A stretch of 64,000 nucleotides of DNA from Candidatus Atabeyarchaeum deiterrae (GCA_037310415.1 CP147780.1:2208001-2272000), one strand, 5' to 3'. Numbered from the stretch's first letter, positions 6,348 to 57,161 are shown. The notes: generated from the letters alone by a model not told the origin. A program made the numbers and translations.

Positions 6348-6396
6348 ACAATAGAGAATCCTGCACACTACTGACTCATGAGGTGTAAGTAGCATC

Positions 6397-8438: not shown

Positions 8439-8625
8439 GCGGGATCATCCCTTTTCTCTTAGCCATCTCTTTTTTGTGGACTCGCGCTTGTTCTTCACAC
8501 TGGATCGTCTATTTGCCTTTTTCACCACTTTTCATCAGATGGCATATTCCAAGACCTATCCCTTTTGAAACACCAATCCCTGAGAAAACGCGTCAGGCCA
8601 ACCTTCAAAACACCTAGGAATTCAC

Positions 8626-8992
8626 AATTCTGTCGCAGGGAAGCCCACGCCCTTTAGGAGTGGGAGGAACTGCGGAGGCCAGATTGGCTGTTCAAATACC
8701 TTCCGCCGCGTATGTTTATTTGGGGCTTGGGGCGAGACCGAGTGGGGTGGTGCCCCCAATACAAAACCTGAGGCTCTGGGCCCAAGGCGGATGGTGGTCT
8801 CGGAGCCACCGAGACGCGAAGCGTAACCCACCACGTCTGGCGAGGTGAGCGGGCTGGAAACGTGCGGCGCACGAAAGCCCGGGAGTCGCAACTTCCACAA
8901 TAGGCTTTCCGGAACCACCGACCCGGCGACGGGCGGAGACAGGGCGAACGAAACGGAAAGCCCACTGGTTTCAAGCCGTGGGAAGAGGTTAC
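8626..8992 (+). mobile_element. Non-autonomous IS200/IS605-family mini-element (no transposase, no tnpB)
   Basis: Target TCAC (8622-8625); left end GAAG + hairpin CCCAC..GTGGG (8644-8664); right end AAAG + hairpin CCCAC..GTGGG (8961-8982) ending TTAC (8989-8992); guide/cleavage tetramers follow the IS608 pairing rule. Confidence 0.75.
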
Positions 8993-9010
8993 ATCCATCA
9001 ATCTCCAACT
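8725..9010 (+). ncRNA. Putative stand-alone omegaRNA-like structured RNA; guide would be the flank after 8992
   Basis: GC-rich, hairpin-dense interior behind a TTTATT box (~8715), ending at an IS605-type right end; boundaries approximate. Confidence 0.45.
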
Positions 9011-9093
9011 AGTGCCATCGGAATTCTATAAACTTTTATCTTTGTTCAAAGCCATAGAGTTTGAAGCGCACTTGCAGACTGGGGTGATATCTA

Positions 9094-9315
9094 TTGACGT
9101 GCTATTTCAGGCATCTTCAACCAGTTTTCGAAAAAGTAGGCTTAACGGTTACGCTTGACAATAAACGTGAAATCGACGAGATAATACATGGAATTGTCGG
9201 GGTTAAGTACAAGAATTGCCCCTCTGCTTGGAGAAAAGTGAAGAAGAGGCTAGCGGAGGACGAAGAAGGATTCGTCTCTGATCTAAAGAAAGCGGTTGGG
9301 CATACGCAGGTGTAG
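9094..9315 (+). CDS. Small conserved-looking hypothetical protein
   Basis: 73-aa ORF, GGGGTG SD before TTG, natural-looking composition (MTCYFRH...CPSAW). Confidence 0.65.
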   Translation: MTCYFRHLQPVFEKVGLTVTLDNKREIDEIIHGIVGVKYKNCPSAWRKVKKRLAEDEEGFVSDLKKAVGHTQV

Positions 9316-9406
9316 GCTTGCCAAGTGCCACAGAAGGACTCAGCGCTGACATCCAGTGACCTTGATTCAGGAGTTCTGAGGTAGAGCAAATATCTCATTT
9401 ATCGCT

Positions 9407-11089
9407 TCATCTATTTTGTGGAACCAGTCTTATGCCCTGAGTTGTGATTTCGTACTCGATCTGCCGTGAAGGGATTGAAGTGAAAGCCATCTTGTCGATT
9501 CTAAGTTTGCGCATCAGCTTTCTTCGAACCCAGACATTCTCCATTTCTATCACCACATCAGCAGTTCCTAGGCATGCGTGGAGAAGGTTTGCTTCGACTA
9601 CACTCGATCGAACAACCGCCAAAAAAGTTTCATCTGTTCGCCTCGCAGAGTCCGCAACCATGCGAGCAAGTACATAGGAGGATTTCAGATCCAAATAAGG
9701 CGCTAATGCAGTAAAGGAATCAACAATGACGGGCAATACCTTTGCTTCACCAAACTTACTGGCAATCCTTTCTCTCTCTGTTCTCATGAAGTTATCGAGA
9801 ATTCTTCTACGCGCACTGACTCCTTTCAACCCTTTTTCTGAGGATCTTAGGTCTCTTGTAAGGAAATGGAATACGTCTATCAGAACAAGCTCCTTGTCCA
9901 AGTAGGGCTCGACATTCCATCCGAAACTTTTGAAGCGTTTAATCACCATGTCAGGAGTCTGGTCAGCACAGTAATAAGCCACTTTTTCCCCTGCCAGCAG
10001 TTTTGACCAAGCAAACTGTGCGCAAAATGTTGATGTTCCGGTTCCCACGTCTCCTTTCAAACAGATAAAAGTGCCTTTGGGGAAACCTCCTTCGAGAATC
10101 AGATCTAGCCCACTAATCCCGGTGGGCGTTCGCTCCGTCTTGGGCAAAGCTAAGCCTTTCCTTGTCTCAACCTCAGAGCTTTCGTCAAGACCATGAGTTG
10201 TCTTTAAACGTTCCCGAAGATTGCCATGCTTCGTTTCTATTCCTTTGCCAGTTATCTCATACTCCATAGAGAGGCTCCCTGTAGGTGCAAAAGGCATTTT
10301 CTCGACGAAGAGCTCCCTAGTTGGACCTCTGCTTGTCCATTTCATTTTCAGTCGGATCATTCCGTCGACGGAACGAGTGAGTGCCTGAACAAGGTTTCCC
10401 TCCAACACACCTTCGTGAGCTACTATGAGGGAAGCGTTTCCCGCTGCCCTAATTCTTTCACAACCATCAATTACCAACTCATTAGCCACACGAACATCAA
10501 TGAAAGGGGCCAAAGCTGTGAACGAGTCTGTGATGTGTGTGTGTGGAACGCTGTCTTTCAGCGGATATCTAGAGGACGCCTCTTTCTTGAAGACGTCTAT
10601 GCACTCATCCGACGTGACTGGCCTCAGGTGCTCAATGTCATATGCTTTTGAGATACCCATGCTATTGCATAACAGTTGGTATCCATCGATTATCACAAGC
10701 ATTCCACTATCTATGGACTTCTGGATATCGAACCCTGCAAAATTGAAGTACTTGTGCAGAAGCACTGGATGATAGTCATACAGGGTGAAGATCACTCTTC
10801 CACCCCTGTTGAGTACGTTCACTGCGATTTGAACACAGAAGACGGTCGTTCCGGTGCCAGGAGCCCCAATCAATGCAGTTGTCGAGCCTTTTGGAAGTTC
10901 CCCAGCAAGGATGTCGTTTATGCTCGAGGTTCCAACGATTCCCTCAACCGACGAGTCATCTTCTTTGGGGTTCAAAACACTGCCCTCCCGCACAATTGGG
11001 GTCACAAAGCATACCATACTATAAAAGTATTCGTCGGGAAATCGGAGACACTCTTGCAGCAGACTCCCTCGGCGAGTCTCGCAATTCAC
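9407..11089 (-). CDS. KaiC/RAD55-like protein with two RecA-fold domains (start probably TTG 10975)
   Basis: Two repeats of TGI..D.IL.G..PKG + P-loop + DSFTALAP; ends R.L.I.KM...YEIT.QGI. Confidence 0.85.
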   Translation of the reverse strand: MNCETRRGSLLQECLRFPDEYFYSMVCFVTPIVREGSVLNPKEDDSSVEGIVGTSSINDILAGELPKGSTTALIGAPGTGTTVFCVQIAVNVLNRGGRVIFTLYDYHPVLLHKYFNFAGFDIQKSIDSGMLVIIDGYQLLCNSMGISKAYDIEHLRPVTSDECIDVFKKEASSRYPLKDSVPHTHITDSFTALAPFIDVRVANELVIDGCERIRAAGNASLIVAHEGVLEGNLVQALTRSVDGMIRLKMKWTSRGPTRELFVEKMPFAPTGSLSMEYEITGKGIETKHGNLRERLKTTHGLDESSEVETRKGLALPKTERTPTGISGLDLILEGGFPKGTFICLKGDVGTGTSTFCAQFAWSKLLAGEKVAYYCADQTPDMVIKRFKSFGWNVEPYLDKELVLIDVFHFLTRDLRSSEKGLKGVSARRRILDNFMRTERERIASKFGEAKVLPVIVDSFTALAPYLDLKSSYVLARMVADSARRTDETFLAVVRSSVVEANLLHACLGTADVVIEMENVWVRRKLMRKLRIDKMAFTSIPSRQIEYEITTQGIRLVPQNR

Positions 11090-11116
11090 GCCGTTGACTT
11101 GTTCATCAAGGCAATA

Positions 11117-12343
11117 CTAGTGTTGAAGTAATTGACCTTTTATGATTGTGGCGTAGATTGAGAGATCTTCTTGGTTGAGGATAACTAAGTCGGCATCTTT
11201 CCCTTTTTCTATGCTTCCTTTCCGAGCATCCACGCCAATCACTTTCGCTGGGTTGATTGTCGCCATCTTGACAGCCTGTTGAAGAGGCAGACCCAGCGAA
11301 GTAACTAGGACCCTAAGCGATCTATCTAATGTCACCGTGCTCCCTGCTAATTGTCCTGTCGGGAGAGTGCAGACGCCGTTCTTCAGCTCCACGCTGAATC
11401 CCATCAAGCTGTACTTGCCGTCCGGCATTCCAGCTGGGGGAATGCTATCTGAAATGAGAACAACCTTTTCAGCGCCTTTGGTTTTGATTAGCAGTCTCAT
11501 AGCGCCTTCATGAACATGGACATTGTCGGCAATCAGCTCAGCAGTTACGTCGTCTCGCACAAGCACCGCTGCCAGAATACCAGGGTCTCTCTGTTTGAAA
11601 TCTCTCATGGCGTTGAAGGTGTGAGAGGCGTGGGTCACGCCTGCGTTGATTGCCGCCAACATTTCCTCATATGTTGCGTTGCTATGCCCCGCGGCAACAG
11701 TAACCCCTTTTGCTTTGACTCTTTTGATGAATTCAAGCGCCCCAGGCACTTCAGGAGCGATGGTTATCAGCTTGACGTTTCTTCCAGATTCGTCGTATAT
11801 TAGATCAAATTCGTCAATGCTTGGATCTCTGATGAAGTCTACAGGTTGAGCTCCTAGCTTTGTCCTGCTTAAGTATGGACCCTCCAAGTTCATCCCAAGA
11901 ACTTCCGCTTCGTCCGAGACCACTTCGGATCCGATCAGTCCTGCTACCGCCCTAGTCGTGGATAACAGCATCTCGTTAGGCTCTACTCCCGTCGTTGGAA
12001 GAAAAGAAGTAACACCGTGACGCGGGAAGGAGGAAGCCATCTTTTTGATTGACTCTATTCCGCCGCTTAATGCGGAGCCGCCGTTCAATCCATGAGTGTG
12101 GATATCAATCATCCCAGGAATCACTATCTTGCCCTTGGCATTCAATTTGCCACGGGAAGCTCTCTCCGTTGTCTGGCGAACACCGCCTTGCCTGATATCG
12201 GCTATCATTCCTTCCTGGATTAGGACTGATCCGTGTTCGATTATCCTGTAAGGAGTGACTACTGCCGCATTCTCAATAAGTGAGATGTCCTTCCCATGGG
12301 CGTTGTGTTTTGGCAATTCTAGGTTGGTACCTCTCTGTCGCAA
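11117..12343 (-). CDS. nagA: N-acetylglucosamine-6-phosphate deacetylase
   Basis: PGMIDIHTHG, LEGPY, TIAPE, GHSNA, HTFNAM, DNVHV, LAGS motifs. Confidence 0.92.
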   Translation of the reverse strand: MRQRGTNLELPKHNAHGKDISLIENAAVVTPYRIIEHGSVLIQEGMIADIRQGGVRQTTERASRGKLNAKGKIVIPGMIDIHTHGLNGGSALSGGIESIKKMASSFPRHGVTSFLPTTGVEPNEMLLSTTRAVAGLIGSEVVSDEAEVLGMNLEGPYLSRTKLGAQPVDFIRDPSIDEFDLIYDESGRNVKLITIAPEVPGALEFIKRVKAKGVTVAAGHSNATYEEMLAAINAGVTHASHTFNAMRDFKQRDPGILAAVLVRDDVTAELIADNVHVHEGAMRLLIKTKGAEKVVLISDSIPPAGMPDGKYSLMGFSVELKNGVCTLPTGQLAGSTVTLDRSLRVLVTSLGLPLQQAVKMATINPAKVIGVDARKGSIEKGKDADLVILNQEDLSIYATIIKGQLLQH

Positions 12344-12567
12344 TCAGCAATCATCATTTTTCAGGGATCGGTGAAGCAATCTCTTCCTTCCTGCTATTTG
12401 GCGGTTGACGATACTGGGGTGTCAGTCGCTTTTGGCGGAGTTCTCTGAAAGCCGATATGTCTAGTCATCGATTGATAGTGTTTTTGCTATCTGTCCTCCA
12501 ATTTGAAAGAGTAGAACCCGTGAAAGGAGAACGTGTATTGCTTCTCGATTCCTAGATCGACTCAAGG

Positions 12568-14522
12568 TCACAGAAATCTTATTGCTTCTTCGAGTCTTTT
12601 CTTGAGCGTATCGTTCACTGTCTTTCCGTCGGCCTTTCCTCGTAATTGTTTCATCACGTCTCCCATTAGGGGGCTTAATGCTTGCATTTTCTTCTCCCTA
12701 ATTAGATCCATGTTCTTCTTGATCGTTTCCTCGACGATTTTGGCAAGTTCACCTGTAGAGACTTCTTTTATTCCGAGTATGCCGATTGCCTCGTCCACAG
12801 TCGCTGTCTGATCCTTCGCAAGGTACACCAGTATATCGGGTATTGCTTCCTTCGCAACTTTCTCTTCGTTAAGTTCCTTGAAAACTCGTTCCACTTTCTC
12901 GTCTCCTATGTTTTCCACAGTAATACCTTCCCTTTTCAAGTACTTCAACGTGTTCTGAAGCGTTGTGGCAACGAGTGCCGGCGAAACATTCCTCATCTTT
13001 TCCACAATACTCTCGAATAAATCCAAGTGATACGATCTGATCATTGCTTCAGCAAGTTCTTTACTGAGTTTGTATTGTTTGACGAATCGTTCGAACTTCT
13101 CCTCTGGTTTTTCGGGGAGAGCTTCCTTTATCCTGGTGATCCTTTCTGAGGTTATGGGAACGATCGAAGTGTCCGTCTCAGGATACATCCTTGCAGATCC
13201 TGGTTTTGGTCTGCTGTACTGCGTTGACCCGTCAGGCTTTGCCCCTCTTGTCTCTTCTGGGACACCACTAATCGCTTCCCTTGCTCGCTCAACTGCCGCA
13301 TCTAGGGCGTCTTTGGCTTTCTTAGGTTGATCGGCGACAAGTAGGATACAGTCATCTTTACCGGCTGCCAGTCGTTCTTTTACCTTCTTGACTTCTTCCT
13401 CTGTTATTCCATATGCTGGCAATTCATCAGTGTGGAAAATCCCTCCGACACCGCCCCAGAAAATTGCTCTCTCAGACATCTCTGTGCCGAGACGTCTTCC
13501 AGGTTGAACCTCTCTTCCGACGAGTCCAGCGAACTTCGGAAGCACTGTTGCTAGCACAACTCCATGTTGATCCAATGCTTTCCTCATGACTTTGCTCTTG
13601 GATTCTTTGAACAACTCTGACAGATCAGCAGATTTTCCTTTGACGTCATCCTTCTTGACGTTTCTGTTCTTAAGCTCATCTCTGATCCTGACTAGGCTAA
13701 GCTGTCTCTGAACCTCGAGTTCAACGACGCGTGCCAGAAGTCCAAGTTCCTGAACACCTTTGACTTCTATTAACGCTCCGTCCTTAGTTGACACGTTTAC
13801 GTCTTGTCTTATTGTTCCAAGTCCACGCTTCACTTTTCCAGTTGCTCGGAGGAGTTGACCGATCTTGTATGCCGCGCTTTCAGCTTCTTCTGGACTGTTT
13901 AGGTCGGGAGCCGTGGCTATTTCCACGAGAGGGATGCCTTGTCTGTCCAATCTGTATACGACTTCGTTCTGTGTCTCGCTCATCTTCCTAGCTGCATCTT
14001 CTTCGAGAGAGATGGTCTGAATCCGGACGCTTTTTCCATTTTCCAGCTCAATTTGACCACCCAAAGAAATCAAGGCCGTTCGCTGGAAGCCTGTGGTGTT
14101 TGAACCGTCGATGACAATCTTCCTCATGACATGAATCTCGTCGATGGGGCAGCTGTTCAAAAGCAAAGCCATTTCAATTGCTGTATCTAGGGCTTCCTGG
14201 TTCAATGGGTGAGGAGGCTCATCGTCTAGGCCAGCAACTCTCAACCATCTTAGAAGGAGATGCTGTCTGCCTCAACTAAACAGGTTCCCTCACCATACAT
14301 CTCATACATGAAAGTCTTCCCTTTGTGGAACTCGAAGAGAGCAGCTTGGTCGACCTGACCCAATTCACTCTGTGTTGGGCGAAGTCTTCGTTTGAACCTA
14401 ATACTGGGTTCATCTTCATGAATAACGATAGGGCAGCTGCAGAAAAGCTTGCCCTTGGTGTTGAGTTGCTGATGTAGTTCAAGCCCAACAACGGTTCCAG
14501 CTTTCGGATGATCAATATCCAT
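12568..14522 (-). CDS. gatE: Glu-tRNA(Gln) amidotransferase subunit E, split by a 41-nt intron (exon 1 14267-14522, exon 2 12568-14225; 637 aa spliced)
   Basis: GLELHQQL..KLFC..LRPTQSELG..CLVEA in ORF 14250-14537; DEPPHPLN, MRKIVIDGSNTTGFQRT, RMYPETD in ORF 12568-14244; removing 14226-14266 yields the conserved CLVEADDEPPHP. Confidence 0.93.
14226..14266 (-). other. 41-nt bulge-helix-bulge (tRNA-type) intron in gatE mRNA
   Basis: mRNA: GUUG-AGGC-AG^A-CAGCA...UGCUG-GCCU-AG^A-CGAU; 4-bp central helix, two 3-nt bulges, flanking helices; canonical cuts restore the frame. Confidence 0.85.
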
Positions 14523-14590
14523 ATGGATCCACCCCACACTTAAGTGTGCACATTGATTGGCTTAGTGATTCTTCTTACCAGTATTTCTCC

Positions 14591-16006
14591 TTACTCTTCT
14601 CTTTCGGCGGTTTCAGGAACCGACTCATCCGCGTGGGAGACTGCCGTGATCTCTCCGACGATGTTCGTTCTGATTAACTGGATTGTCTTCTCATGACTTT
14701 GTTCACTGCCAAGTAGCCACATTAATTTGACGAGTGCAGTTTCGGGCAACATGTCTTCCCCTGGTGTCACGCCCATGGCGAGTAGTTCGCGTCCTGTTCT
14801 ATAGACGCTCATATTAATGCGTCCCGAGATGCATTGACTGGTCATAACGACGATAATGTCGTCTTCAACCGCTCGCTTTATGGACCGGTATGTTCCTTCT
14901 GGAACGTGTCCAAGACCAGTTCCTTCCAACACGATGCCATGGTAACTCTTGTCGACCAACGCATCAATCAGTTCGCCCGCACTCCCAGGATACGTCTTGA
15001 CGAGACCAACCTTATCGTCGAATTTTGCCTGAACGTGGAGTTCCCTCTTTGCATCGCGCCTGGTATACTCGTCAACTAGCATTTTCACGTTGCCATCCTG
15101 AACTCGCGCTGTTGGTTTCGCGTTGATTGATCTGAAGGCATCTCGCCTGCTAGTGTGCATCTTCCTTACCTTCGTCCCCCTATGGCAAAGACTGTAGTTG
15201 TCTCCCATCTCCCCGTGCATGCACACGACGACCTCAGCAAAAGGGCCGCTTCCTGCAGAAACAACTGCGTTGATGAGGTTCATTGCAGCATCAGAAGATG
15301 GGCGGTCCGACGATCTTTGCGATCCCACAAGTACCACGGGGACTGGAAGTCCTTGAAGTGCAAAACTGAGAGCCGCAGCCGTGTAGTGCATCGTATCAGT
15401 CCCGTGAGCAACGACAACCCCGTCCAATCCGCCCTCTATAATGCGTTTGCCAATCGAGTCTGCGATCATAGACCATTTGTCAGATGTCATATTCTCACTG
15501 AGAATATTGCAGAGGATCTCTGCCCTAACGTTCGCAGTGTCCCCAAGCTCTGGAACCACATCGTACAGGTCTTGAGCTGAAAGTGCTGGGCTGACTGCTC
15601 CAGTTTTGTAGTCAACCTTGCTAGCGATGGTGCCTCCAGTGCTTAGGAAACTTACCGTGGGCAGACCTTTGACAACACGTCTCGGGGCTGCTATTGTGGC
15701 ACCTTGTTGCGTCCCCGCTTCTACGCTTCCCTTCTTCAAGATTGATATGATGATGTCCTGTTTCACGTCAATCCCGATATTGTAACCGCTTTTCTGTTTG
15801 ACAACAATGTGAAAATCATCGGTTGACACGACTGGTCGAGGCATCACAACGCCCTCGAAGACCGAGCCACTCTTTGTGCTGATCTTGACAAGATCGCCGA
15901 CGCTGGCACCTGCTGCCTTCAAAGCCTTTAAGGCTTCTCCGCGATAACCAAAATCAGAAGCTCCGCCACTGCCCTTCTCGGTGGAAGGATTTGCCTGCCG
16001 TTTCAA
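14591..16006 (-). CDS. gatD: Glu-tRNA(Gln) amidotransferase subunit D
   Basis: K.KSGYNIGI N-domain, STGGTIASKVDY, HGTDTM, GSQRSSDRPSSD, KMHTSRRDAF. Confidence 0.96.
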   Translation of the reverse strand: MKRQANPSTEKGSGGASDFGYRGEALKALKAAGASVGDLVKISTKSGSVFEGVVMPRPVVSTDDFHIVVKQKSGYNIGIDVKQDIIISILKKGSVEAGTQQGATIAAPRRVVKGLPTVSFLSTGGTIASKVDYKTGAVSPALSAQDLYDVVPELGDTANVRAEILCNILSENMTSDKWSMIADSIGKRIIEGGLDGVVVAHGTDTMHYTAAALSFALQGLPVPVVLVGSQRSSDRPSSDAAMNLINAVVSAGSGPFAEVVVCMHGEMGDNYSLCHRGTKVRKMHTSRRDAFRSINAKPTARVQDGNVKMLVDEYTRRDAKRELHVQAKFDDKVGLVKTYPGSAGELIDALVDKSYHGIVLEGTGLGHVPEGTYRSIKRAVEDDIIVVMTSQCISGRINMSVYRTGRELLAMGVTPGEDMLPETALVKLMWLLGSEQSHEKTIQLIRTNIVGEITAVSHADESVPETAEREE

Positions 16007-16081
16007 ATGATCTTAACACCTCCGAGGTGTCACCAGATTACGTCTTTGATTATTATAACACTATCCATTGTATCATAGCAG

Positions 16082-16112
16082 GATGATGGTGGCTCCTAAG
16101 AGCCGCATCATC
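16082..16112 (-). terminator. Hairpin immediately after the asnS stop (putative terminator or processing site)
   Basis: GATGATGGTGGCTC-CTAA-GAGCCGCATCATC inverted repeat between asnS and the gatD promoter. Confidence 0.45.
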
Positions 16113-16117
16113 GGAAC

Positions 16118-17485
16118 TCATGGATAACGCCTCGTCAAATATCTCGGGAAAGGTATGGACGCCCTAATGTGGTCAAGTTTGCACATCCATCTTATCAGTC
16201 TATCACACCCGAGTCCGAATCCACTGTGAGGAACAGTGCCATACCTTCTCAAATCTATGTACCATTCGTAGTCCTCGGGCTTCAGATGCTCCTCCTTTAT
16301 TCTGCTTATGAGAGCATCCTTGTCGTGTATTCTTTGACCGCCTCCAATTATCTCACCGTAGCCCTCGGGAGCCAGACAGTCACCGCATCTAACAACGCTT
16401 GGATCGCTCGGCTTCGGATAGTGATAGAATGGTTTTAGGCTTCTTGGGTATTCTAAAACAAAAATGGGCTTAGACAGATCCTCCGTCAATTTAAGCTCCT
16501 CATCAGCACCCATGTCATCACCGTACTCTATCGTGACGCCCTTCTTCTTTATGCGATCGATCGCCTCTCCATATCCTATCCGCTCGAAAGGTGTCTTGAC
16601 TGAAGCAAGATCCTCAGGGTCTCTTCCAAGCTTCTCAAGCCGCTTGCCGTATTTTTCAGCAATAGACTGACAGACGTGGGAGACAAGTTTCTCCTCGACT
16701 TGTACTATGTCATCTAGATCCATCCAAGCGGCTTCCGCCTCCGCATGCCAGTACTCTGTTAGATGCCTTGGAGTCTTCGACTTCTCCGCTCTGAAACTTG
16801 GTGCGACACAGTAGACCTTTTCGAGGCTCTGCATCATCGCTTCAAGGTAAAACTGAGAACTTTGTGTCAGATAAGCCACTTCGCCGAAGTAGTCCATCTT
16901 GAAGAGAGTAGCACCTCCTTCAACTGAAGCCGATATTATCATGGGCGGATGAACCTCAATCCACCCATCTTGTCTAAACCATTCTCTAATGGCTTCGAAG
17001 GTGTCTGCTCTTATCTTCATGATCAGTGTTTGCTTCTCCCCTCTTAGATGGAGGTGTCTTTTGTCGAAAAGAACATCTATACCTGCATCTATTGGAAGTG
17101 GCCACTCTTCCGCAAGCCCTTCTATATGGAGATCGCTAAGTTCCACTTCATGTCCACCAGGGGCTCGCTTGTCGCTTCTGACGGTGCCTTTCACGATGAT
17201 AGATGATTCACGTGTGACCTTCTGCACATTTTCAAAGACTTGTTTCGAAACCTTGTCCTTGTGAACACTAATTTGGATAATGCCAGTTCCATCACGAAGA
17301 TCAATAAACAACAGATTCCCGTGAACCCGTTTGTTGTAAACCCAACCCGCCAGAACTACCTCTTTCGACTCAAGGCTCTGGCCGCTCTCAAGTACCTTGC
17401 TCACGGGAACCCGACCTCTAAGTTGCCCAAGCACTGTCTCACTTCCTTTCAATTCTAATCGCAATCGATCAACCATAACAATCAT
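16118..17485 (-). CDS. asnS: Asparagine--tRNA ligase
   Basis: OB fold (FIDLRDGTG), EGGATLF, LTQSSQFYLE, FRAEKSKTPRHLTEYW, GEIIGGGQR, YGTVPHSGFGLG. Confidence 0.92.
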   Translation of the reverse strand: MIVMVDRLRLELKGSETVLGQLRGRVPVSKVLESGQSLESKEVVLAGWVYNKRVHGNLLFIDLRDGTGIIQISVHKDKVSKQVFENVQKVTRESSIIVKGTVRSDKRAPGGHEVELSDLHIEGLAEEWPLPIDAGIDVLFDKRHLHLRGEKQTLIMKIRADTFEAIREWFRQDGWIEVHPPMIISASVEGGATLFKMDYFGEVAYLTQSSQFYLEAMMQSLEKVYCVAPSFRAEKSKTPRHLTEYWHAEAEAAWMDLDDIVQVEEKLVSHVCQSIAEKYGKRLEKLGRDPEDLASVKTPFERIGYGEAIDRIKKKGVTIEYGDDMGADEELKLTEDLSKPIFVLEYPRSLKPFYHYPKPSDPSVVRCGDCLAPEGYGEIIGGGQRIHDKDALISRIKEEHLKPEDYEWYIDLRRYGTVPHSGFGLGCDRLIRWMCKLDHIRASIPFPRYLTRRYP

Positions 17486-17638
17486 GCATGATTTGAGTAT
17501 TAAGCAACGATCTTGACCTTGGATTATAAACTCCTTTCAGTCGAGAGAACGCTCCAGAAAACGGACGGAGTCAAGACCAGAATAAGAGGGACAAAAAGTG
17601 GAGGGGATTAATTGCTATAACCTCCCTCGTATTCGACT

Positions 17639-18202
17639 CTAGTCGTGTTTCATCGACAGAATCAGTATTGCTATTAACGCTGAAACCAACCACACGATCA
17701 CGAAAGACACTATGATGTCTATGAGCAGACTGCCAACTAAGATGTTGTATGCTGCCGAGAGTAGAGTCCAAATGCCGGCAACACTGTAGGTGTAGATACC
17801 AGTCCAAAAGACCCATAGTACGAGTGTTACTAGAATGTATATGACAGCGATGTTCAAGCCGGCTATGATGCCCTTTGATGCTACCCTTTCCTTCTTGGCA
17901 GTAAGACCGAAGATTAGCCCGCCTACGACGGCGCCAATCAATATGACAATTAGCGCTTCATAGTGTGCATTGATTAGATATGTGTACGATTGTAGCATTA
18001 TCCAGAATACACTCGTGACCATGCCTTGGAGAGCCGCGCGGACAGCTGGGTCCCCAACACCTGGAAGCGTCGATACAAAGCCTGTCAGAAGACCTGAAAG
18101 TGCGAATGACGTGAGCAATGCTGCGAAGATGCCGATGAGTGCTGCGAGCCATGTTCGTGGGTGTATGAATCCAACAAAGAATTGTTTTGCTGCTTCAGCC
18201 AT
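17639..18202 (-). CDS. Membrane protein, about 5 TM, unknown function
   Basis: 187-aa hydrophobic ORF with GAGGAG SD. Confidence 0.7.
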   Translation of the reverse strand: MAEAAKQFFVGFIHPRTWLAALIGIFAALLTSFALSGLLTGFVSTLPGVGDPAVRAALQGMVTSVFWIMLQSYTYLINAHYEALIVILIGAVVGGLIFGLTAKKERVASKGIIAGLNIAVIYILVTLVLWVFWTGIYTYSVAGIWTLLSAAYNILVGSLLIDIIVSFVIVWLVSALIAILILSMKHD

Positions 18203-18404
18203 TTTACTTTTCTCCTCTTGATAACGTTGTTAACAACTATTATGCTTTAAAGTTCTTAAATGTTGGGGCTATGAAAAACAATTTCCTCAACTGACAGCAA
18301 TCAATATGCTCTCATTCAGTTGCAGGAGGTGTCCCCTAACAAACACAAACCGCAATAGCGTTACAGGAAGCTCACACTGGAAGTGAGGTGATTTCCTGTA
18401 CGGA

Positions 18405-19390
18405 ATGCTTCAAACGATGTGGTTCCAGGAACGAAACCCTATCCGACGCACCAGCATCGGGGAGATTACATATGCTGGCTTCGCAATGATATGTGGGAAT
18501 CGGACTTTGAGAAAAGGGATCTCTGTGATTCGCATTCAGAAGGCATCTAAAGAAAATGAGTTCTTGCGAGTCCCGCAATCTTTTGTCAAAGTCTTAGAAA
18601 CGTTTAAGCTCTGGAACAGCGATCAGTACGAATTAGCGGAACGGTTCGGTGGGAGGCCCCTCAATAAGTGCGCGCTGAAAACCTAGCCTTTGCGATCGTC
18701 TACATGTTGCATGAGGCTTCGTGCAACAGGCAGTTCATTCCAGTCGCCGATTTCAAGGACGTGCTCGGCGAATCGGAGGTCTCCACGCTGATAAAGATGT
18801 TACGTAGCGTCCACATAATCATCACTGAGAAGGAGTTTTCCGACGTCGTTGCACGCGCCAAAGCCGCATTGCACCTAACAGAAAACGGAATCGGTGCATA
18901 TGCTGACGATTTTCCTTCCAGCGACGGTGACGACATCATTGCTCTGAACCCTGCGCTGGTAGACGAGATGAAGAGAAACTATCCTGGACAACTCGGCTAT
19001 CAAATGGTAAGACGATTCGTGAGTGGCTTCCTAGGCTCACTAGAACTTGCTGCAAACGTTGGTTCACTAGACGACTTGGTCAAAGAGTTGTCCACGAAGT
19101 ACCAAGATAAATTCAAAATTGCTGTTGCCAAGGACATGGTAGTCGCCCGTGCATGTAACCTGTCGGAAGTGGAGAGGGCCTCGCTCGCAGCAGCAAAGTT
19201 GGCGTCTCCCCCCAGATTTCACAGTATTGTCTCAATCCTTTTGAGTAGAGCCCAGAAGTACGCCGAACAGATCTCAGTAGAAATCGCTCGGGAAGATATA
19301 GAAGACTACTTGTTCAACGGTCCCAAAGGAGGGGCTACTAATAAAAGCCCGACTACACCGAGTTATCTAGAGAGATCTGGGACCTTGTGA
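18405..19390 (+). CDS. Hypothetical protein, probably one gene split by a 38-nt intron (exons 18405-18640 and 18679-19390; 315 aa)
   Basis: Two overlapping out-of-frame ORFs; GAGGTG SD upstream of the first; removing 18641-18678 fuses them (DQYELAE/NLAFAIVY). Confidence 0.6.
18641..18678 (+). other. Putative 38-nt BHB-type intron
   Basis: UU-AGCG-GA^A-CG...CG-CGCU-GA^A-AA; perfect 4-bp central helix, two GAA bulges; length mod 3 equals the frame offset. Confidence 0.6.
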
Positions 19391-19452
19391 AGTGACTGGG
19401 TTAATCCAGCGTAAGTCTTCTTCAGTGTGGAGTTGCAAAGGAAGTGGCTTGA

Positions 19453-20619
19453 GTGCCTCAACCTACAAGTACTGATGCGAAAAAGAGTGGCGCAGACAAG
19501 AAGGAGCGCAGGCAAGAAAAAGGCGTCAGCGAACAGATGAGGGCAGACCACTTCGCCACGAAAGAGATGAGAGAGTTACACGATAAGGCCTCAAACCTAA
19601 TGCGGCAAGGCAATTACAGGCAAGCATTTGACGCATACGTTGAGTATGGCGATTCGGCAAGCAAGATCAAAGGGTTGATCGGAGGAGAAGCTGCGATCCT
19701 AGAAGGAGCCCGGAAATTCGAGGAGCTGCGCTACTGGAATGAGGCTGGAAATCTATACGCTGTTGCGGCCAACTATTTAAACAATTCAGGTACTTTTTCT
19801 GACGCAGCTGACTTCTACCTAATGGCTGCAGAAAGACTTGCCAAAGCAGACGACAGGAGCATGGCTGGATTCATCGCTTCCTGCTATGCCGCGGCAGCCC
19901 ATGCGCTTCGTGAAATAAAATCTACGGGTCAATCCGACGCCGCATTGATAAAAGGAGTTTTGGTTGCCACCGGCGACGACCCTCGCGAGGCAGAAGCTAG
20001 CGCCTTTAAGATGACCAAAGTAGGTGACTTCGAAAACGCATCTGGGATGTTCCTCAAAGCGGCTTCGACGTACCTGAAGGGAACTGATGAGCTATCAGGC
20101 TTGGCTTCAACCGTCGGGATTGGGTCGCTGGCTGTCGACGTGAAGTCTGTGCTTCAACACAGGGCGGGGCAAGACTTTCTAGCTGCTGCTACTTGCCTCT
20201 TGAAGTCAGAGGCAAAAGCTGACCTTGTCAAGGGATATCTTGTAAAAGCTGCAGATGAGTTCACGAATGCCGTGTTCAACTTCACTCCCCTGTTCTCTCT
20301 TGGGGAAGCCAACAAGGAAGATTCAAGAAGATACTCCTATGACCTGGTGATGGCGACAGCGCTACGAATAGTACTTGGATCAACTGAAGACATCGAAACT
20401 TTAAAGCAACAGCTGACATATGCCAACGAGAAGCCGACAAAGGAACTCCAAGAAAGCAAGTCCTTGACAGTTGCACGCCTATTGATGGAGAAAAAGAAGG
20501 TTGAAACTGTAGTCGGTGATCTCAGAGAGATTCAATTCGGAACCATGGAAGAGTTGAAAGACCCTATTATAGAGCTATTCCTGAGCTATAAGACCGCAGG
20601 AAAAAGAGCCAGACGTTAA
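19453..20619 (+). CDS. Alpha-helical TPR-like protein resembling alpha-SNAP (NSF attachment protein)
   Basis: Repeated AG.LY..AA / AADFY..AAE / ASGMFLKAA helical-hairpin motifs. Confidence 0.55.
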   Translation: MPQPTSTDAKKSGADKKERRQEKGVSEQMRADHFATKEMRELHDKASNLMRQGNYRQAFDAYVEYGDSASKIKGLIGGEAAILEGARKFEELRYWNEAGNLYAVAANYLNNSGTFSDAADFYLMAAERLAKADDRSMAGFIASCYAAAAHALREIKSTGQSDAALIKGVLVATGDDPREAEASAFKMTKVGDFENASGMFLKAASTYLKGTDELSGLASTVGIGSLAVDVKSVLQHRAGQDFLAAATCLLKSEAKADLVKGYLVKAADEFTNAVFNFTPLFSLGEANKEDSRRYSYDLVMATALRIVLGSTEDIETLKQQLTYANEKPTKELQESKSLTVARLLMEKKKVETVVGDLREIQFGTMEELKDPIIELFLSYKTAGKRARR

Positions 20620-20634
20620 TTAGGTCTTGTCGAT

Positions 20635-21159
20635 CTACAGCTTGTATCCGATCTTGCGAAGCAGCTCTTTTCGTTCGCGAATATCTTTCTCAGTTTCAAT
20701 GCCCCTTGGCATGCTGCCATCTATCACACCAAGAATTCCTCTACCTTGATCCGTTTCAGCAACGATTATTTCTACAGGGTTTGCAGTAGAGCAGAAAACT
20801 GAGCAGACCTCTGGAACCTCCTTTATTCTGTTCAGAATGTTGATTGGATAAAAATCACGCATGAACACTATGAAACAGTGTCCGCAGCCTATCTTTGAAG
20901 CAGCCTCTGCCGCCAACTTCTTGAGTTCGTCGTCCGTGCCTGAAAGACGAACCAAACATGGACCACTTGATTCGCAGAATGCGAGTCCAAATTTGGCACC
21001 CGGGACAGCGGTCACAACGCTCTCATGAATGTCTTCCACTGTCTTAATGAAGTGGGACTGTCCCAATATCAAGTTACAATTCCTCGGAGCCTCAATCTTC
21101 ACGACTTTCAACTCCATCCCGCTCATCCTCCGCTCAAAACAGCTTACTGCCCTCTCCAA
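20635..21159 (-). CDS. Adenosine-specific kinase-like protein (DUF355 family)
   Basis: [57 protein letters not shown]. Confidence 0.85.
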
Positions 21160-21252
21160 TTGGCGCTTCTTTTTTTGTCGCTAGACTGGATTGAATAATA
21201 CTCAGCTTATAATATTTGTGAGAAACTGTTTTGTTAACTCTTCGGGTGGTAG

Positions 21253-21260
21253 TTTTTATA
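21253..21260 (+). promoter_or_regulatory. TATA box for a probably leaderless tnpB transcript
   Basis: TTTTTATA ending 23 nt before ATG 21283, just inside the left TIR. Confidence 0.55.
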
Positions 21261-21282
21261 CGTGAAATACCTCGTCTTAGGT

Positions 21283-22440
21283 ATGCAAGTAATCAAAGCA
21301 GTCAAGCAAAGCTACACGCCATCCCCCCAGTTGCTTAACCTCTTGCACGAGTTTAGGAAGATGGTGAATGATTGTATACGGGTTGGCTTGGCTGAGAACG
21401 TTACTTCGATGAAGGCTCTTTCAAAGAAGGCTTATCATGAACTTGCAAGACATGATGTGCCAACCTACTACCGTTTGACTGCGATTAGTAAAGCTGCTGG
21501 CATCCTTCGGAATTACAGGCACGCTCTAAGAAGGAAGCAGCCGAGGGTGAAGAAGCCGTATGCGATTAAGCCCATGCTCACTGACTGCTACGGTTTCAAG
21601 ATAATCAACGGCAAGCTCAGACTACCGATCAGAGCAAGAGAATACGTTTACATCCCATTGAACGCTTACGTGTTGCGGTCTATTGAGGGCCATGCTGCGC
21701 GATCAGTCTGTCTGACTACTTGCACCGTATCGGCGGCTTACTCGAAAGAAGCTACTCAGATTGAGCCTGTAGGGCTAATCGGGATTGACCGCAACCTCGA
21801 CAACGTAACCACAGCATCTTCAGACGGAAAGGTGAAACGATATGACCTGTCAAAAGTGACCAAAATCAAAGAAAACTGCAGGCAGGCTAAGCGAGGCTTC
21901 AGAAGAAATGACTACCGCATCATGAAACACCTCTATTCCAAATATGGGAGAATCCAAAAGAGCAAAGTGAATTGGATACTGCACAACGCTTCCGCAAGCA
22001 TAGTGAGACAGGCGAAAGAAGAACAGTTCGGCATAGTCATGGAAGACATCAGGGGCATCCGTAAGCTCTACAGAAAGGGAAACTGGCAAGGAAAAGACTA
22101 CAGAGCAAGATTGAACGGTTGGAGCTACGCTGAGCTGCAACGGCAAATAGAGTACAAGGCACGTTGGGAAGGTATCCCCGTGTTTTACGTTCATTCATCC
22201 AAGACTTCTTCAGTCTGCGCGATATGTGGCTGTAACATAGCTGAATGTGCAGGGAGGAAGGTCTACTGTCCATGCTGCAATAGGCTCGTGGACAGGGATG
22301 AGAACGCGGCTTTGAATATTGTCGGCGCAGGGCTGCGGTTCAGCCTGAAGGGAGTAGCAGCTGAAGCAGTGAAGGGGAACCCTGAAAAGGTAATCCTCCG
22401 AGCAGATGCCACCCAGTTAACTCATCACCCGAAGAGTTAA
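21283..22440 (+). CDS. tnpB: RNA-guided endonuclease TnpB (Cas12f-like)
   Basis: RuvC-I GIDRN, RuvC-II MEDIRGIR, Zn ribbon CAICG...CPCC, RuvC-III DRDENAALNI; catalytic D-E-D intact. Confidence 0.93.
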   Translation: MQVIKAVKQSYTPSPQLLNLLHEFRKMVNDCIRVGLAENVTSMKALSKKAYHELARHDVPTYYRLTAISKAAGILRNYRHALRRKQPRVKKPYAIKPMLTDCYGFKIINGKLRLPIRAREYVYIPLNAYVLRSIEGHAARSVCLTTCTVSAAYSKEATQIEPVGLIGIDRNLDNVTTASSDGKVKRYDLSKVTKIKENCRQAKRGFRRNDYRIMKHLYSKYGRIQKSKVNWILHNASASIVRQAKEEQFGIVMEDIRGIRKLYRKGNWQGKDYRARLNGWSYAELQRQIEYKARWEGIPVFYVHSSKTSSVCAICGCNIAECAGRKVYCPCCNRLVDRDENAALNIVGAGLRFSLKGVAAEAVKGNPEKVILRADATQLTHHPKS

Positions 22441-22557
22441 CAGAACCTGAGAAACGATGCTGACTTAGTTTGACTCGATCCTCATACTCTTTTATTAAGG
22501 GGTTAAAAGCTAATCCCTAGCATCGAAGAATAGAAAAGTATCCCAAGAAAGGCTGAA

Positions 22558-23361
22558 GTGAGTGGTGTAGTAGAAATGGGTTCGCTCGTTTTGGTCGAGA
22601 AGAAAGACAGGCTGACCAAGGTCATTCTCAATAGAGAAGATAGGAGAAATGCATTCAATCAAGATCTCTTGTCAGATCTCGGGGCTGCTCTTAAAGCGGT
22701 TCGAGACGATTCAGACTGCTTGGGGGTAATCGTGACAGGCGTAGGACCAGTCTTCTCATCAGGACTTGACCTGAAGGCTTTTCAAGACGGGTTTGCCTCA
22801 AGCCATCAAGATCCATCAGGGATTATTCGCCTTGTCCAAGATACCTTCACCGCTCTGGAGGACATGGAGAAGCCAACCCTTGCAGCAGTGAACGGTACGG
22901 CTACGGGGATGGGACTGGAACTTGCTCTGGCATGTGATTTTAGAATCGCCTCGGATGATTGCAGACTGAGTCTTCCTGAAGTATGCCTCGGCATCATGCC
23001 TGACATCGGTGGTGCTATGCTTCCAAAGCTTGTAGGTCTTGGCATCGCGAAGGAGATAGCTTTGACAGGTCAAGTGATTGATGCTCAGAGGGCCGAAAGG
23101 ATCGGACTGGTAAACAAGGTCGTTCCGCCCAGTGAATTAATGGTCGAAGCTGAGAATTTCGTCCGCCAGATAATAGAAAACAGCCCCATCGCAGTCAGAT
23201 CCACGAAGACATTGATGAACAAAGCTTTCCAATTGGATCCAAAAACGATGGCTGAGTACACAATAGACCTACAGCTTCAGTGCCTTAAGTCAAATGATCT
23301 TCTACGCTACGCAGCAAATTACATCTCAAAAAGAATCAAGCTGCCGCCGAAACCCAACTGA
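22558..23361 (+). CDS. Enoyl-CoA hydratase/isomerase family protein
   Basis: LNREDRRNA, FSSGLDL, KPTLAAVNG.A.G.GLELALACDFR, PEVCLG. Confidence 0.92.
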   Translation: MSGVVEMGSLVLVEKKDRLTKVILNREDRRNAFNQDLLSDLGAALKAVRDDSDCLGVIVTGVGPVFSSGLDLKAFQDGFASSHQDPSGIIRLVQDTFTALEDMEKPTLAAVNGTATGMGLELALACDFRIASDDCRLSLPEVCLGIMPDIGGAMLPKLVGLGIAKEIALTGQVIDAQRAERIGLVNKVVPPSELMVEAENFVRQIIENSPIAVRSTKTLMNKAFQLDPKTMAEYTIDLQLQCLKSNDLLRYAANYISKRIKLPPKPN

Positions 23362-25233: not shown

Positions 25234-25354
25234 GCTTCTACAAGAAAACAGAGCCCTGCAAATCATACCATCAAATGATAAGGAGCTCACTAGACAGAAT
25301 GTGTATTGAACCTCCCCGTGTGTCCGCGCCCACCCTTCTGGAATATTAGGTCAG

Positions 25355-57139: not shown

Positions 57140-57161
57140 CGAATCACGGAATCGATGCCAT

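What the first reader, a model, noticed from the sequence alone, without database searches (positions are those of the whole stretch)
12568..19390. Possible lineage-wide system of tRNA-type introns in protein-coding genes
Two candidate BHB introns of similar size (41 and 38 nt) lie within 4.4 kb. They are unrelated in sequence but share architecture: identical trinucleotide in both bulges, third bulge base A, frame-disrupting length. Inference: this archaeon may carry many EndA-spliced mRNA introns hidden as 'frameshifted' genes. That would be a post-transcriptional control layer relevant to the origin of non-spliceosomal mRNA splicing (compare HAC1/XBP1, ligated by tRNA ligase).
Basis: inference. 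Interest (0 to 1): 0.85.

Follow-up and report, generated by a model that had tools for sequence, protein, structure and literature searches.

The report
tRNA-type introns in Asgard mRNAs
One of the two proposed mini-introns (41 bases inside the essential gene gatE) is almost certainly real and the other is a chance look-alike, but the wider idea holds: this wetland Asgard archaeon has at least nine ordinary protein genes interrupted by tRNA-style introns, where only one such gene was known in archaea.

Summary
Both motifs exist as described: 41 nt at window 14266..14226 (minus strand) and 38 nt at 18641..18678.

**gatE intron: genuine.**
- It is a strict bulge-helix-bulge (BHB) motif.
- The standard cut restores the GatE motif CLVEAD|DEPPH.
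- Two sister genomes carry an insert at the same codon (41 and 35 nt) with a different loop.
- Two other Asgard families carry a BHB intron 5 nt downstream.

**Second candidate: not an intron.**
- Orthologues and paralogues start exactly at the GTG at 18668, which lies inside the proposed intron.
- A promoter-like box and a GGAGG site are conserved upstream.
- The BHB is not conserved in the sister genomes.
- Equally weak ORF-joining BHBs are as common as mirror decoys (14,286 vs 14,778).

**The inference survives on other evidence.**
- Nine genes in this genome (probably Atabeyarchaeia-2) are split inside conserved motifs by 28-53-nt inserts: gatE, glyA, valS, mtnP, rio2, pcm, an EndoQ-like gene, a RuBisCO-like gene and a radical-SAM gene.
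- For each, the BHB cut rule restores the motif exactly.
- Eight recur at the same codon in the sister genus, most with changed helix sequence but preserved pairing. One is absent there.
- A two-gene EndA and RtcB are present.
- No RNA evidence was obtained, and a regulatory role is untested.

Other readers of this scan flagged the same phenomenon in other windows of this genome. I found no publication describing it.

The parts
14267..14537 (-). gatE exon 1 (N-terminal ~90 residues; start at GTG 14537 or ATG 14522). Read unspliced, it ends ...CLVEADSISF, with the stop at 14252..14250.
   Evidence: Pfam GatB_N profile positions 1-30. tblastn to GatE of 19 relatives.
14226..14266 (-). 41-nt BHB intron of gatE, bounded by the predicted cuts after the second base of each AGA bulge.
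   Evidence: Strict BHB. Excision gives CLVEAD|DEPPH. Inserts at the same codon in G001 (41 nt) and G002 (35 nt) with different loops.
14269..14276 (-). 5' strands of the outer helix (14276..14273, GUUG) and the central 4-bp helix (14272..14269, AGGC). The 5' bulge AGA is 14268..14266.
   Evidence: coordinates derived from the fold of window 14300..14215.
14221..14236 (-). 3' strands: inner helix 14236..14232 (UGCUG), central helix 14231..14228 (GCCU), 3' bulge AGA 14227..14225, outer helix 14224..14221 (CGAU).
12568..14225 (-). gatE exon 2 (about 551 codons plus stop), in the +2 frame relative to exon 1.
   Evidence: Pfam GatB_N 45-276, GAD, GatB_Yqey. 40 of 41 relatives have a homologue, mostly as one open frame of 632-696 aa.
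14591..16006 (-). gatD-like gene directly upstream of gatE (same strand, 54-nt gap), the partner subunit of the amidotransferase.
   Evidence: ORF and translation, 471 aa. Assigned as gatD from its position directly upstream of gatE and from my reading of the translation; not run against Pfam.
18641..18678 (+). Second candidate: a weak BHB look-alike, judged not to be an intron. It contains the Shine-Dalgarno-like GGGAGG (18651..18656) and the GTG start (18668) of the downstream gene.
   Evidence: The motif is not conserved in G001 or G002. The codons V/L-R-A-E inside it are conserved as coding.
18668..19390 (+). Complete 240-aa gene of unknown function (no Pfam hit), with its own start. Orthologues exist in the two sister genomes, plus a paralogue family.
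   Evidence: Coding score 0.71 per codon. Metatranscriptome contigs cover 18683..19255.
18592..18609 (+). Conserved non-coding box UCUUAGAAACGUUUAAGC, resembling an archaeal BRE/TATA promoter, about 60 nt upstream of the GTG start.
   Evidence: Three-genome alignment, with a 4-nt indel beside it that excludes coding conservation. The promoter assignment is an inference.
18405..18686 (+). It is probably not a gene.
   Evidence: No Pfam hit. No tblastn match upstream of the orthologues. Coding score only 0.11 per codon.

Best explanation
The gatE gene of this Asgard archaeon is interrupted by a 41-nt archaeal bulge-helix-bulge intron. The pre-mRNA folds so that two 3-nt AGA bulges flank a 4-bp helix. 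The tRNA-splicing endonuclease, here a two-gene crenarchaeal/Asgard-type EndA, is expected to cut after the second base of each bulge. RtcB would then join the exons, restoring the frame and the catalytic motif CLVEADDEPPH. Unspliced RNA gives only a 95-residue stump.

gatE is one of at least nine protein genes in the genome that are split this way inside highly conserved motifs. Most of these introns are shared with the sister genus, so obligatory EndA/RtcB splicing of mRNAs is a lineage trait. It parallels the extreme intron load reported for this lineage's tRNA genes.

The second site (18641..18678) is not part of this. It is a chance weak BHB lying over the ribosome-binding site and GTG start of an independent gene.

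Shown: the anatomy, the homology restoration, the conservation with compensatory change, and the presence of the enzymes.
Inferred: that cleavage and ligation happen in vivo, and which enzyme subunits do what.
For: gatE:
- The strict BHB is the top-scoring frame-restoring solution.
- Pfam GatB_N is split 1-30 | 45-276 across the two ORFs.
- An uninterrupted relative reads CLVELDEEPPH at the junction. Most relatives have one open frame of 632-696 aa.
- G001 and G002 carry inserts of 41 and 35 nt at the same codon, with the helices kept and the loops different.
- Families f7 and f18 carry 30-31-nt BHB introns 5 nt downstream. Their central helices are GACG/CGUC and GAUG/CAUC, and their inner helices are unrelated in sequence.

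Other genes:
- HMM matches are split for SHMT (5-55 | 51-399), PCMT (3-61 | 59-208) and RuBisCO_large (5-173 | 255-299).
- For seven genes only 1-6 excisions restore the conserved motif, and in each case exactly one of them has BHB geometry.
- G001 has an insert at the exact predicted codon in eight genes, with lengths 38, 31, 35, 49, 28, 54, 28 and 41 nt.
- The changes are compensatory. For example, pcm CACC/GGUG becomes CGCC/GGCG, and the inner hairpins keep pairing with new sequence.
- The radical-SAM intron is absent from G001, whose gene reads straight through CNFTCPWCQN.

Enrichment:
- Strong motifs (near Watson-Crick, at most one G-U pair; inner helix at least 6 bp; length at most 60 nt): 15 real vs 6 decoys.
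- Conserved motifs with diverged introns of at most 60 nt: 10 vs 3.

Enzymes:
- Two EndA genes each have the N- and C-terminal domains. One matches the EndA chains of PDB entries 3p1z, 3ajv, 2cv8 and 2zyz, which I recall as crenarchaeal alpha subunits, at 1.9e-46.
- RtcB is intact.
- PMC5829648 states that Asgard archaea carry the (alpha-beta)2 type with the loop that confers broad specificity.

Second site:
- The orthologues and three paralogous copies (one in each of the three family genomes) start at the homologous TTG, GTG or ATG, with GGAGG 11-13 nt upstream.
- The upstream ORF has no counterpart and a low coding score.
- The upstream conservation contains a 4-nt indel, so it is non-coding.
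Against: - No RNA evidence. The only metatranscriptome contigs that map do not cover gatE, and none crosses either junction.
- Four of the nine introns (valS, mtnP, rio2 and gatE in G002) have one mismatch in the central helix, and several have weak outer helices. They depend on the relaxed specificity assumed for this EndA.
- Naive genome-wide scans show no enrichment over decoys. The relaxed conserved-motif scan gives 98 vs 82, so structure alone cannot give a count. The enrichment that remains (10 vs 3) is modest statistically.
- For gatE alone, the repeated AGAC at both junctions would also allow a ribosomal hop from GAC to GAC giving the same protein.
- The organism's identity (Atabeyarchaeia-2) rests on genome sizes, habitat and another agent's note, not on a named record.
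Confidence: 0.85

Rival explanations
1. Both sites are true introns. The 38-nt element is spliced to fuse the 93-codon ORF to the 240-codon ORF.
For: - The BHB-like geometry has identical GAA bulges and a perfect 4-bp central helix.
- Excision joins the two frames.
- The lineage clearly tolerates relaxed BHBs.
Against: - The excised segment contains the conserved start codon and the conserved codons R-A-E of the orthologues and paralogues.
- The upstream ORF has no homologue and a coding score of 0.11 per codon.
- The motif is absent from G001 and G002.
- Both bulges start with G, against A in 18 of 18 bulges of the verified introns.
- Motifs of this strength that join ORFs are as common as decoys.
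Confidence: 0.04
2. The gatE break is not spliced at the RNA level. It is a pseudogene, a sequencing error, or a site of programmed translational bypass from GAC to GAC.
For: - The same AGAC tetranucleotide sits at both junctions, so a take-off/landing hop would give the same protein.
- No RNA data exist.
Against: - I saw only one full-length GatE match in the genome. GatDE is normally indispensable in archaea.
- The flanks are 82-88% identical in protein to G001, while the insert evolves as a paired structure.
- Independent assemblies of three species carry inserts of different sequence, which excludes an error.
- By inspection of the junction sequences, glyA and pcm lack matching take-off and landing codons, yet they show the same BHB geometry.
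Confidence: 0.04
3. The introns are real and also serve as a regulated control layer: splicing efficiency gates production of housekeeping enzymes. The alternative is that they are near-neutral or selfish passengers.
For: - Six of the nine introns lie in the first third of their genes, seven within the first 35%.
- All sit in catalytic motifs, so unspliced RNA yields inactive stumps.
- Eight of nine have been retained across two genera.
Against: - Nothing measured bears on regulation.
- The same lineages have introns in 92-95% of tRNA genes (PMC11291895). A 2026 preprint infers repeated independent gains, which fits proliferation rather than design.
- Location in conserved motifs is also what survival of selfish insertions predicts, because imprecise loss is lethal.
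- Gain and loss are visible between the genera: the radical-SAM intron is only in G000, and there is an extra insert in the RuBisCO-like gene of G001.
Confidence: 0.15

Closest known systems
cbf5 pre-mRNA intron of Crenarchaeota (Watanabe 2002; Yoshinari 2006; Yokobori 2009, PMC2738675)
   Same: - A short BHB intron inside a protein-coding ORF.
- Removed by the tRNA-splicing endonuclease of the hetero-oligomeric (alpha-beta)2 type, then ligated.
- Shows lineage-specific gain and loss.
   Different: - A different phylum (Asgard) and different genes; cbf5 itself is unsplit here.
- Not one gene but at least nine, mostly metabolic and translation enzymes.
- Several use relaxed motifs.
- As late as 2020, cbf5 was described as the only such case apart from a 5'-UTR BHB in Haloferax (PMC7714728).
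Non-canonical, multiple tRNA introns of Atabeyarchaeia and Freyarchaeia (PMC11291895; bioRxiv 10.64898/2026.10.13.758758)
   Same: - The same genomes, the same expected enzymes and the same relaxed BHB style.
- The mRNA introns occur in families that probably belong to the classes reported to be tRNA-intron-rich. The gatE intron was found in f1, f7 and f18 only, out of 18 families sampled.
   Different: - The host RNAs are mRNAs, so splicing must precede or compete with translation, and errors shift the frame.
- Neither paper mentions protein-coding introns.
HAC1/XBP1 unconventional mRNA splicing in eukaryotes
   Same: Spliceosome-independent removal of a short frame-changing intron by a protein endonuclease. 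In animals the exons are joined by RtcB, the same ligase family present here.
   Different: - The endonuclease is IRE1, which recognises twin stem-loops rather than a BHB.
- That splicing is stress-regulated and changes the C-terminus rather than restoring a catalytic core.
- No homology of the introns is implied. This is a resemblance of mechanism, not membership.

Membership tests
Archaeal BHB intron (EndA substrate): gatE site | Two 3-nt bulges on opposite strands, separated by a 4-bp helix and flanked by an outer and an inner helix | tested here: met
   Outer helix GUUG/CGAU, central helix AGGC/GCCU, bulges AGA and AGA, inner helix CAGCA/UGCUG.
Archaeal BHB intron (EndA substrate): gatE site | Cutting after the second base of each bulge yields a functional product | tested here: met
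   The splice gives CLVEAD|DEPPH in frame, matching uninterrupted GatE. Pfam coordinates are contiguous across the join.
Archaeal BHB intron (EndA substrate): gatE site | Structure conserved in relatives while the sequence changes | tested here: met
   G001 41 nt and G002 35 nt at the same codon, with different loops. Families f7 and f18 have a BHB with other helices 5 nt away.
Archaeal BHB intron (EndA substrate): gatE site | Splicing endonuclease and RNA ligase encoded in the genome | tested here: met
   Two EndA genes with N- and C-terminal domains. RtcB is present.
Archaeal BHB intron (EndA substrate): gatE site | Spliced junction or circular intron observed in RNA | tested here: inconclusive
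   The metatranscriptome contigs laid on the region do not cover gatE. Raw reads were not available.
Archaeal BHB intron (EndA substrate): 38-nt site at 18641..18678 | BHB geometry | tested here: inconclusive
   The central helix and bulges are present, but the outer and inner helices are only 2 bp each. Fold z-score 0.07.
Archaeal BHB intron (EndA substrate): 38-nt site at 18641..18678 | Excision restores homology to uninterrupted relatives | tested here: not met
   Relatives start inside the putative intron, and the upstream ORF has no homologue.
Archaeal BHB intron (EndA substrate): 38-nt site at 18641..18678 | Motif conserved in sister genomes | tested here: not met
   No complementary central helix in G001 or G002 at the aligned position.
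Multi-gene mRNA BHB intron set in this genome | Several unrelated genes split in conserved motifs, with the homology-defined excision coinciding with BHB cut sites | tested here: met
   Seven further genes, plus the radical-SAM gene. HMM splits. mtnP and rio2 are only partly confirmed by HMM.
HAC1/XBP1-type splicing | IRE1 kinase-endonuclease and twin 7-nt-loop hairpins at the splice sites | not tested
   Considered only as a mechanistic analogy. The sites here have BHB geometry, not the twin-hairpin geometry.

The most novel reading that the evidence does not exclude
Enzyme-mediated (EndA/RtcB) splicing of mRNAs is a standing, lineage-wide part of gene expression in the intron-rich Asgard classes (Atabeyarchaeia and the Frey/Jord group). 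Dozens of sites are still hidden as 'frameshifted' genes. Splicing is used to gate translation of core enzymes, which would be an archaeal precedent for separating RNA processing from translation before the spliceosome existed.
Probability: 0.15. Interest if true: 0.92.

Novelty: new variant of a known kind. Interest (0 to 1): 0.8.

Why it matters
BHB introns in archaeal protein genes were treated as a curiosity, with cbf5 the only described coding-sequence example.

At least nine housekeeping ORFs here can only be expressed after tRNA-type splicing. This occurs in the archaeal group closest to eukaryotes, and in lineages whose tRNA genes are saturated with introns. Two consequences follow:
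- mRNA splicing by a protein endonuclease and RtcB can become a routine requirement in a prokaryote where, as is usual in archaea, translation is presumably coupled to transcription.
- Questions about how introns spread into coding sequence, and how cells cope with them, become directly testable.

There is also a practical consequence. Gene callers report these genes as frameshifted or as pseudogenes (gatE, glyA, valS and others). That distorts metabolic reconstructions and completeness estimates for Asgard genomes.

Tried and rejected
**1. RNA evidence.**
- One run search and one read-laying run were available.
- Only five short metatranscriptome contigs mapped, at 17769..18176 and 18683..19255.
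- None covers gatE or crosses either junction, so this says nothing either way.

**2. Structure-only genome scans.**
- These used the strict geometry with helices of at least 2-4 bp, ORF-joining and hexamer coding filters.
- Real and decoy counts came out equal, because boundaries between adjacent genes swamp the signal.
- Requiring a weak motif at the orthologous place in G001 gave 135 vs 99 and 98 vs 82, still mostly background.
- Such scans therefore cannot give a census.

**3. Picking the 'best-scoring' relaxed BHB near each break.**
- This chose wrong, longer excisions for glyA, valS, mtnP and rio2.
- Relaxed motifs are too frequent (44-128 per 180 nt) to be used without homology.

**4. 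Motif-free comparison of G000 and G001 ORFs.**
- It found 16 short frame-breaking inserts.
- Only the radical-SAM, valS and RuBisCO-like sites (in both genomes), plus one extra G001 site, had BHB geometry at the right length.
- The others (inserts of 10-158 nt at 636408, 827437, 976768, 1220515, 2275639 and 2419450 in G000) look like ordinary indels or pseudogenes and were dropped.

**5. An intron-poor Asgard genome as a reference for a full census.**

**6. Metagenome pattern scan for more gatE introns.**
- It returned 120 chance hits, none encoding GatE.

**7. My early assignment of the phylum as Thermoproteota.**
- It was based on the best named GatE hits and was wrong, because records near the window are withheld there.
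- Genome sizes, habitat and PMC11291895 point to Atabeyarchaeia.

**8. Sequence relatedness of the introns.**
- No similarity was found among the nine, and there are no extra copies in the genome.
- They are not a recently spreading repeat family.


Full report
**What is at the coordinates**

The finding spans two places.

*First place: gatE on the minus strand.*
- A 95-codon ORF (14537..14250) carries the start of the Pfam GatB/GatE catalytic domain, profile positions 1-30.
- It is followed, in another frame, by a 558-codon ORF (14244..12568). This ORF carries profile positions 45-276 plus the GAD and GatB_Yqey domains.
- Directly upstream on the same strand lies a gatD-like gene, and beyond it an Asp/Asn-tRNA-synthetase-like gene. 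I read both from the translations; I did not test them.

*Second place: two ORFs on the plus strand.*
- A 93-codon ORF (18405..18686) overlaps a 240-codon ORF (18668..19390).
- Neither has a Pfam hit.

The geometry is: outer helix, 4-bp central helix, a 3-nt bulge on the 5' strand inside the central helix, a 3-nt bulge on the 3' strand outside it, and an inner helix.
- In gatE the motif defines a 41-nt intron at 14266..14226, with AGA in both bulges.
- At the second place it defines 38 nt at 18641..18678, with GAA in both bulges.
- The two lie 4.4 kb apart, and both lengths are 3n+2, as needed to join the frames.

**The gatE intron is real**

- The motif is strict: outer helix GUUG/CGAU, central helix AGGC/GCCU, inner helix CAGCA/UGCUG. 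The minimum-energy fold already contains the central and inner helices.
- Cutting after the second base of each bulge is the position used for archaeal tRNA introns (established knowledge). It joins ...GAG GCA G to AC GAU GAG... and gives CLVEAD|DEPPHPLN.
- An uninterrupted relative reads CLVELDEEPPHPLN at this point.
- Most of the 40 related genomes have GatE as one open frame of 632-696 aa.
- Of 128 frame-restoring excisions with relaxed BHB features in the surrounding 180 nt, this one scores highest.
- The two other genomes of the family have an insert at the same codon: 41 nt in G001 and 35 nt in G002. The central helix and bulges are the same, but the loop sequences differ.
- Two further families have a BHB intron 5 nt downstream, in the same motif (..E(V/I/L)DE|TPPF..).
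  - In f7 (G008, G018) it is 31 and 30 nt. The central helix is GACG/CGUC in G018 and GACG/CGCU, with one A-C mismatch, in G008. Both bulges are AAA.
  - In f18 (G028, G037) it is 30 nt, with GAUG/CAUC and AAA bulges.
  - The inner helices are perfect but unrelated in sequence between the two families and between the two f7 genomes. The two f18 genomes share theirs.
  - The 30-nt versions are in frame and carry a stop codon.

This pattern is structure conservation with sequence turnover. It is not what a pseudogene, an assembly error or a coding insertion would show.

**The second candidate is not an intron**

- The 240-codon ORF has orthologues in G001 and G002 (about 50% identity), plus one more distant paralogous copy in each of G000, G001 and G002.
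- Both orthologues and the two paralogous copies I examined (G001, G002) align from residue 1 of the ORF. They begin at the homologous TTG, GTG or ATG, and GGAGG lies 11-13 nt upstream in all of them.
- The proposed intron would therefore delete the ribosome-binding site, the start codon and the conserved codons R-A-E.
- The 93-codon ORF has no counterpart upstream of the orthologues. Its hexamer coding score is 0.11 per codon, against 0.71 for the downstream gene and 0.39-0.75 for the gatE exons.
- What is conserved upstream is a box resembling an archaeal BRE/TATA element (window 18592..18609). A 4-nt indel lies beside it, so the conservation is non-coding.
- The complementary central helix is missing in both sister genomes.
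- The fold of the region is no better than shuffled sequence (z = 0.07).
- Motifs of this strength that join two open frames of at least 50 codons occur 14,286 times in the genome. The mirror-image decoy geometry has the same pairing statistics but is not an EndA substrate, and it occurs 14,778 times.

**Which organism**

- The window lies in a closed 2,756,679-bp genome.
- Its sister genome G001 is 2,808,651 bp. This matches the 2.81-Mbp complete 'Atabeyarchaeia-1' genome from Californian wetland soil. G037, at about 3.6 Mb (size rounded by the tool), is consistent with the 3.58-Mbp Freyarchaeia genome of the same paper (PMC11291895).
- The only runs holding part of the window are wetland and soil metatranscriptomes.
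- Another agent's note names the genome as Atabeyarchaeia.
- I therefore take it to be Atabeyarchaeia-2. This is an inference.
- The paper reports introns in 92-95% of tRNA genes and says nothing about protein genes.
- A 2026 preprint finds that heavy tRNA interruption is concentrated in Atabeyarchaeia and Jordiarchaeia.

**Is there a genome-wide set?**

*Structure-only scans could not answer this.* Adjacent genes on one strand create thousands of chance 'joins'.

*Notes from other first-stage readers of this genome gave leads*. I tested them independently in three ways.

(a) HMM searches of the six-frame genome show domains split across frames at the predicted places.
- SHMT 5-55 | 51-399.
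- PCMT 3-61 | 59-208.
- RuBisCO_large 5-173 | 255-299.
- PNP_UDP_1 stops at profile position 173 of 233, at the mtnP break.
- The RIO1 domain begins right after the rio2 break.

(b) For seven genes I listed every excision that restores the conserved motif, irrespective of structure.
- The motifs were WPGERVYAG, DRNGLPIE, VVGMTAYPE, GKESDVY, SAPHMVV, GTGDFTMP and GGGIHAHP.
- There are only 1-6 such solutions per gene. In each gene exactly one has a central helix of at least 3 of 4 pairs flanked by 3-nt bulges, and in four genes the helix is perfect.
- By my estimate, the chance of this for all seven from the central helix alone is about 4 in 10,000. That is before counting the inner hairpins.

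(c) In G001, the junction predicted purely from the protein alignment carries an insert at the same codon in eight genes.
- The G000/G001 lengths are: glyA 41/38, valS 31/31, mtnP 38/35, rio2 52/49, pcm 29/28, EndoQ-like 41/54, RuBisCO-like 28/28 and gatE 41/41.
- Pairing is maintained through changed sequence. For example, pcm CACC/GGUG becomes CGCC/GGCG, and the inner hairpins are restated with new bases.
- Only rio2 in G001 has a poor central helix (2 of 4 pairs).
- The ninth intron is 53 nt, a perfect BHB inside the CxxxCxxC motif of a radical-SAM gene. It is absent from G001, whose gene is continuous.
- Conversely, G001 has a second candidate 22-nt insert in its RuBisCO-like gene, where G000 is continuous.

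*Features shared by the nine G000 introns:*
- All 18 bulges start with A, against a genome A frequency of 0.27.
- None of the lengths is a multiple of 3. This is partly ascertainment, since in-frame introns without stops would be missed.
- Seven of nine are in phase 1.
- They share no sequence similarity and are single-copy.

*With hindsight, stronger filters do show enrichment over decoys:*
- Near Watson-Crick motifs (at most one G-U pair) with an inner helix of at least 6 bp and length at most 60 nt: 15 vs 6.
- Motifs conserved at the same codon in G001, with diverged intron sequence, a closing hairpin and length at most 60 nt: 10 vs 3. Seven of the ten are the verified genes.

The excess suggests the true number is of the order of 10-20, not hundreds.

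*Distribution among relatives:*
- The glyA intron is confined to the Atabeyarchaeia family. Open frames are 387 aa in G000-G002, against 438-468 aa for the closest glyA match in most other sampled genomes, including f7 and f18.
- The sets are therefore lineage-specific.
- Only the gatE site recurs, and not at the identical nucleotide, in the other intron-rich group.

**Machinery**

- The genome has two EndA genes, of 238 and 198 aa. Each has the N-terminal and the catalytic C-terminal domain.
- The first matches the EndA chains of PDB entries 3p1z, 3ajv, 2cv8 and 2zyz at 1.9e-46. I recall these as crenarchaeal heterotetramer alpha subunits; the table does not name the organisms.
- The second is a more distant paralogue.
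- This fits the (alpha-beta)2 architecture, with the loop that confers broad specificity, reported for Asgard archaea (PMC5829648). Which subunit is catalytic here was not tested.
- RtcB is intact.
- cbf5, the classical intron host, is unsplit.

**Mechanism and rivals**

- The best-supported mechanism is obligatory EndA cleavage and RtcB ligation of these pre-mRNAs.
- Translational bypass could mimic the result for gatE only, because AGAC is repeated at both junctions.
- It cannot explain glyA or pcm, where the junction sequences show no matching take-off and landing codons (my inspection).
- A regulatory role is possible but nothing supports it.
- An alternative fits equally well: introns proliferate in a lineage with a permissive endonuclease, and they survive in motifs where imprecise deletion is lethal. 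This matches the tRNA picture and the observed gain and loss.

**Novelty**

- In six literature searches I found no report of protein-coding BHB introns in Asgard archaea, or of a multi-gene set in any archaeon.
- A 2020 paper states that, apart from its own Haloferax 5'-UTR case, only the cbf5 mRNA intron had been reported.
- The kind of element is known. Its scale, its hosts and its lineage are new.
- Direct RNA evidence is the missing piece.

Noticed in passing
Genome-wide (nine verified introns; gatE at window 14226..14266): All 18 bulges begin with A, and seven of the nine introns are in codon phase 1. In phase 1 the required A falls on a third codon position, which may explain the bias. 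The lengths are 28-53 nt and none is a multiple of 3.
   Followed up: partly
G001 (sister genome) about 2712783, minus strand; G000 equivalent is continuous: The RuBisCO-like gene of G001 has a second, 22-nt frame-breaking insert with BHB-like ends (GCGC AC^A ... GCGA AA^U), about 300 nt upstream of the shared 28-nt intron. Conversely, the radical-SAM intron is only in G000. This is evidence of recent gain or loss.
   Followed up: partly
G029:C6:43042-44093 and G019:C24:4914-5962 (family f14): In another Asgard family, glyA is broken into two abutting open frames at residues about 213-224 of the query. This is a different place from the Atabeyarchaeia intron. It could be another intron or a frameshift.
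   Followed up: no
G000 genome 284246 (minus strand), 85 nt: A BHB-like element (CAAG GA^A ... CUUG AC^A, with an 8-bp inner helix) is conserved in G001 at 84 nt. It sits between a 379-codon and a 232-codon open frame, the second starting ..ILACPICKHYPLDLE. It is unclear whether this is an intron or a structured spacer between two genes.
   Followed up: no
window 17639..18202 (-): A 187-aa ORF that looks strongly hydrophobic (my reading of the sequence; no topology prediction was run), with no Pfam hit. It is the best-covered part of the region in a wetland metatranscriptome (contig 17769..18171, word depth 56.6).
   Followed up: no
window 18592..18609 and the aligned positions in L002 and L003: A conserved box, UCUUAGAAAnnUUUAA(A)GC, lies about 60 nt upstream of the start codon in three genomes. 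It looks like an archaeal BRE/TATA promoter and could serve as a promoter model for this lineage.
   Followed up: partly
window 1..64000: ARAGORN finds no tRNA gene in the 64-kb window. tRNA finders are known to miss heavily interrupted genes in this lineage, so this is not evidence of absence.
   Followed up: no
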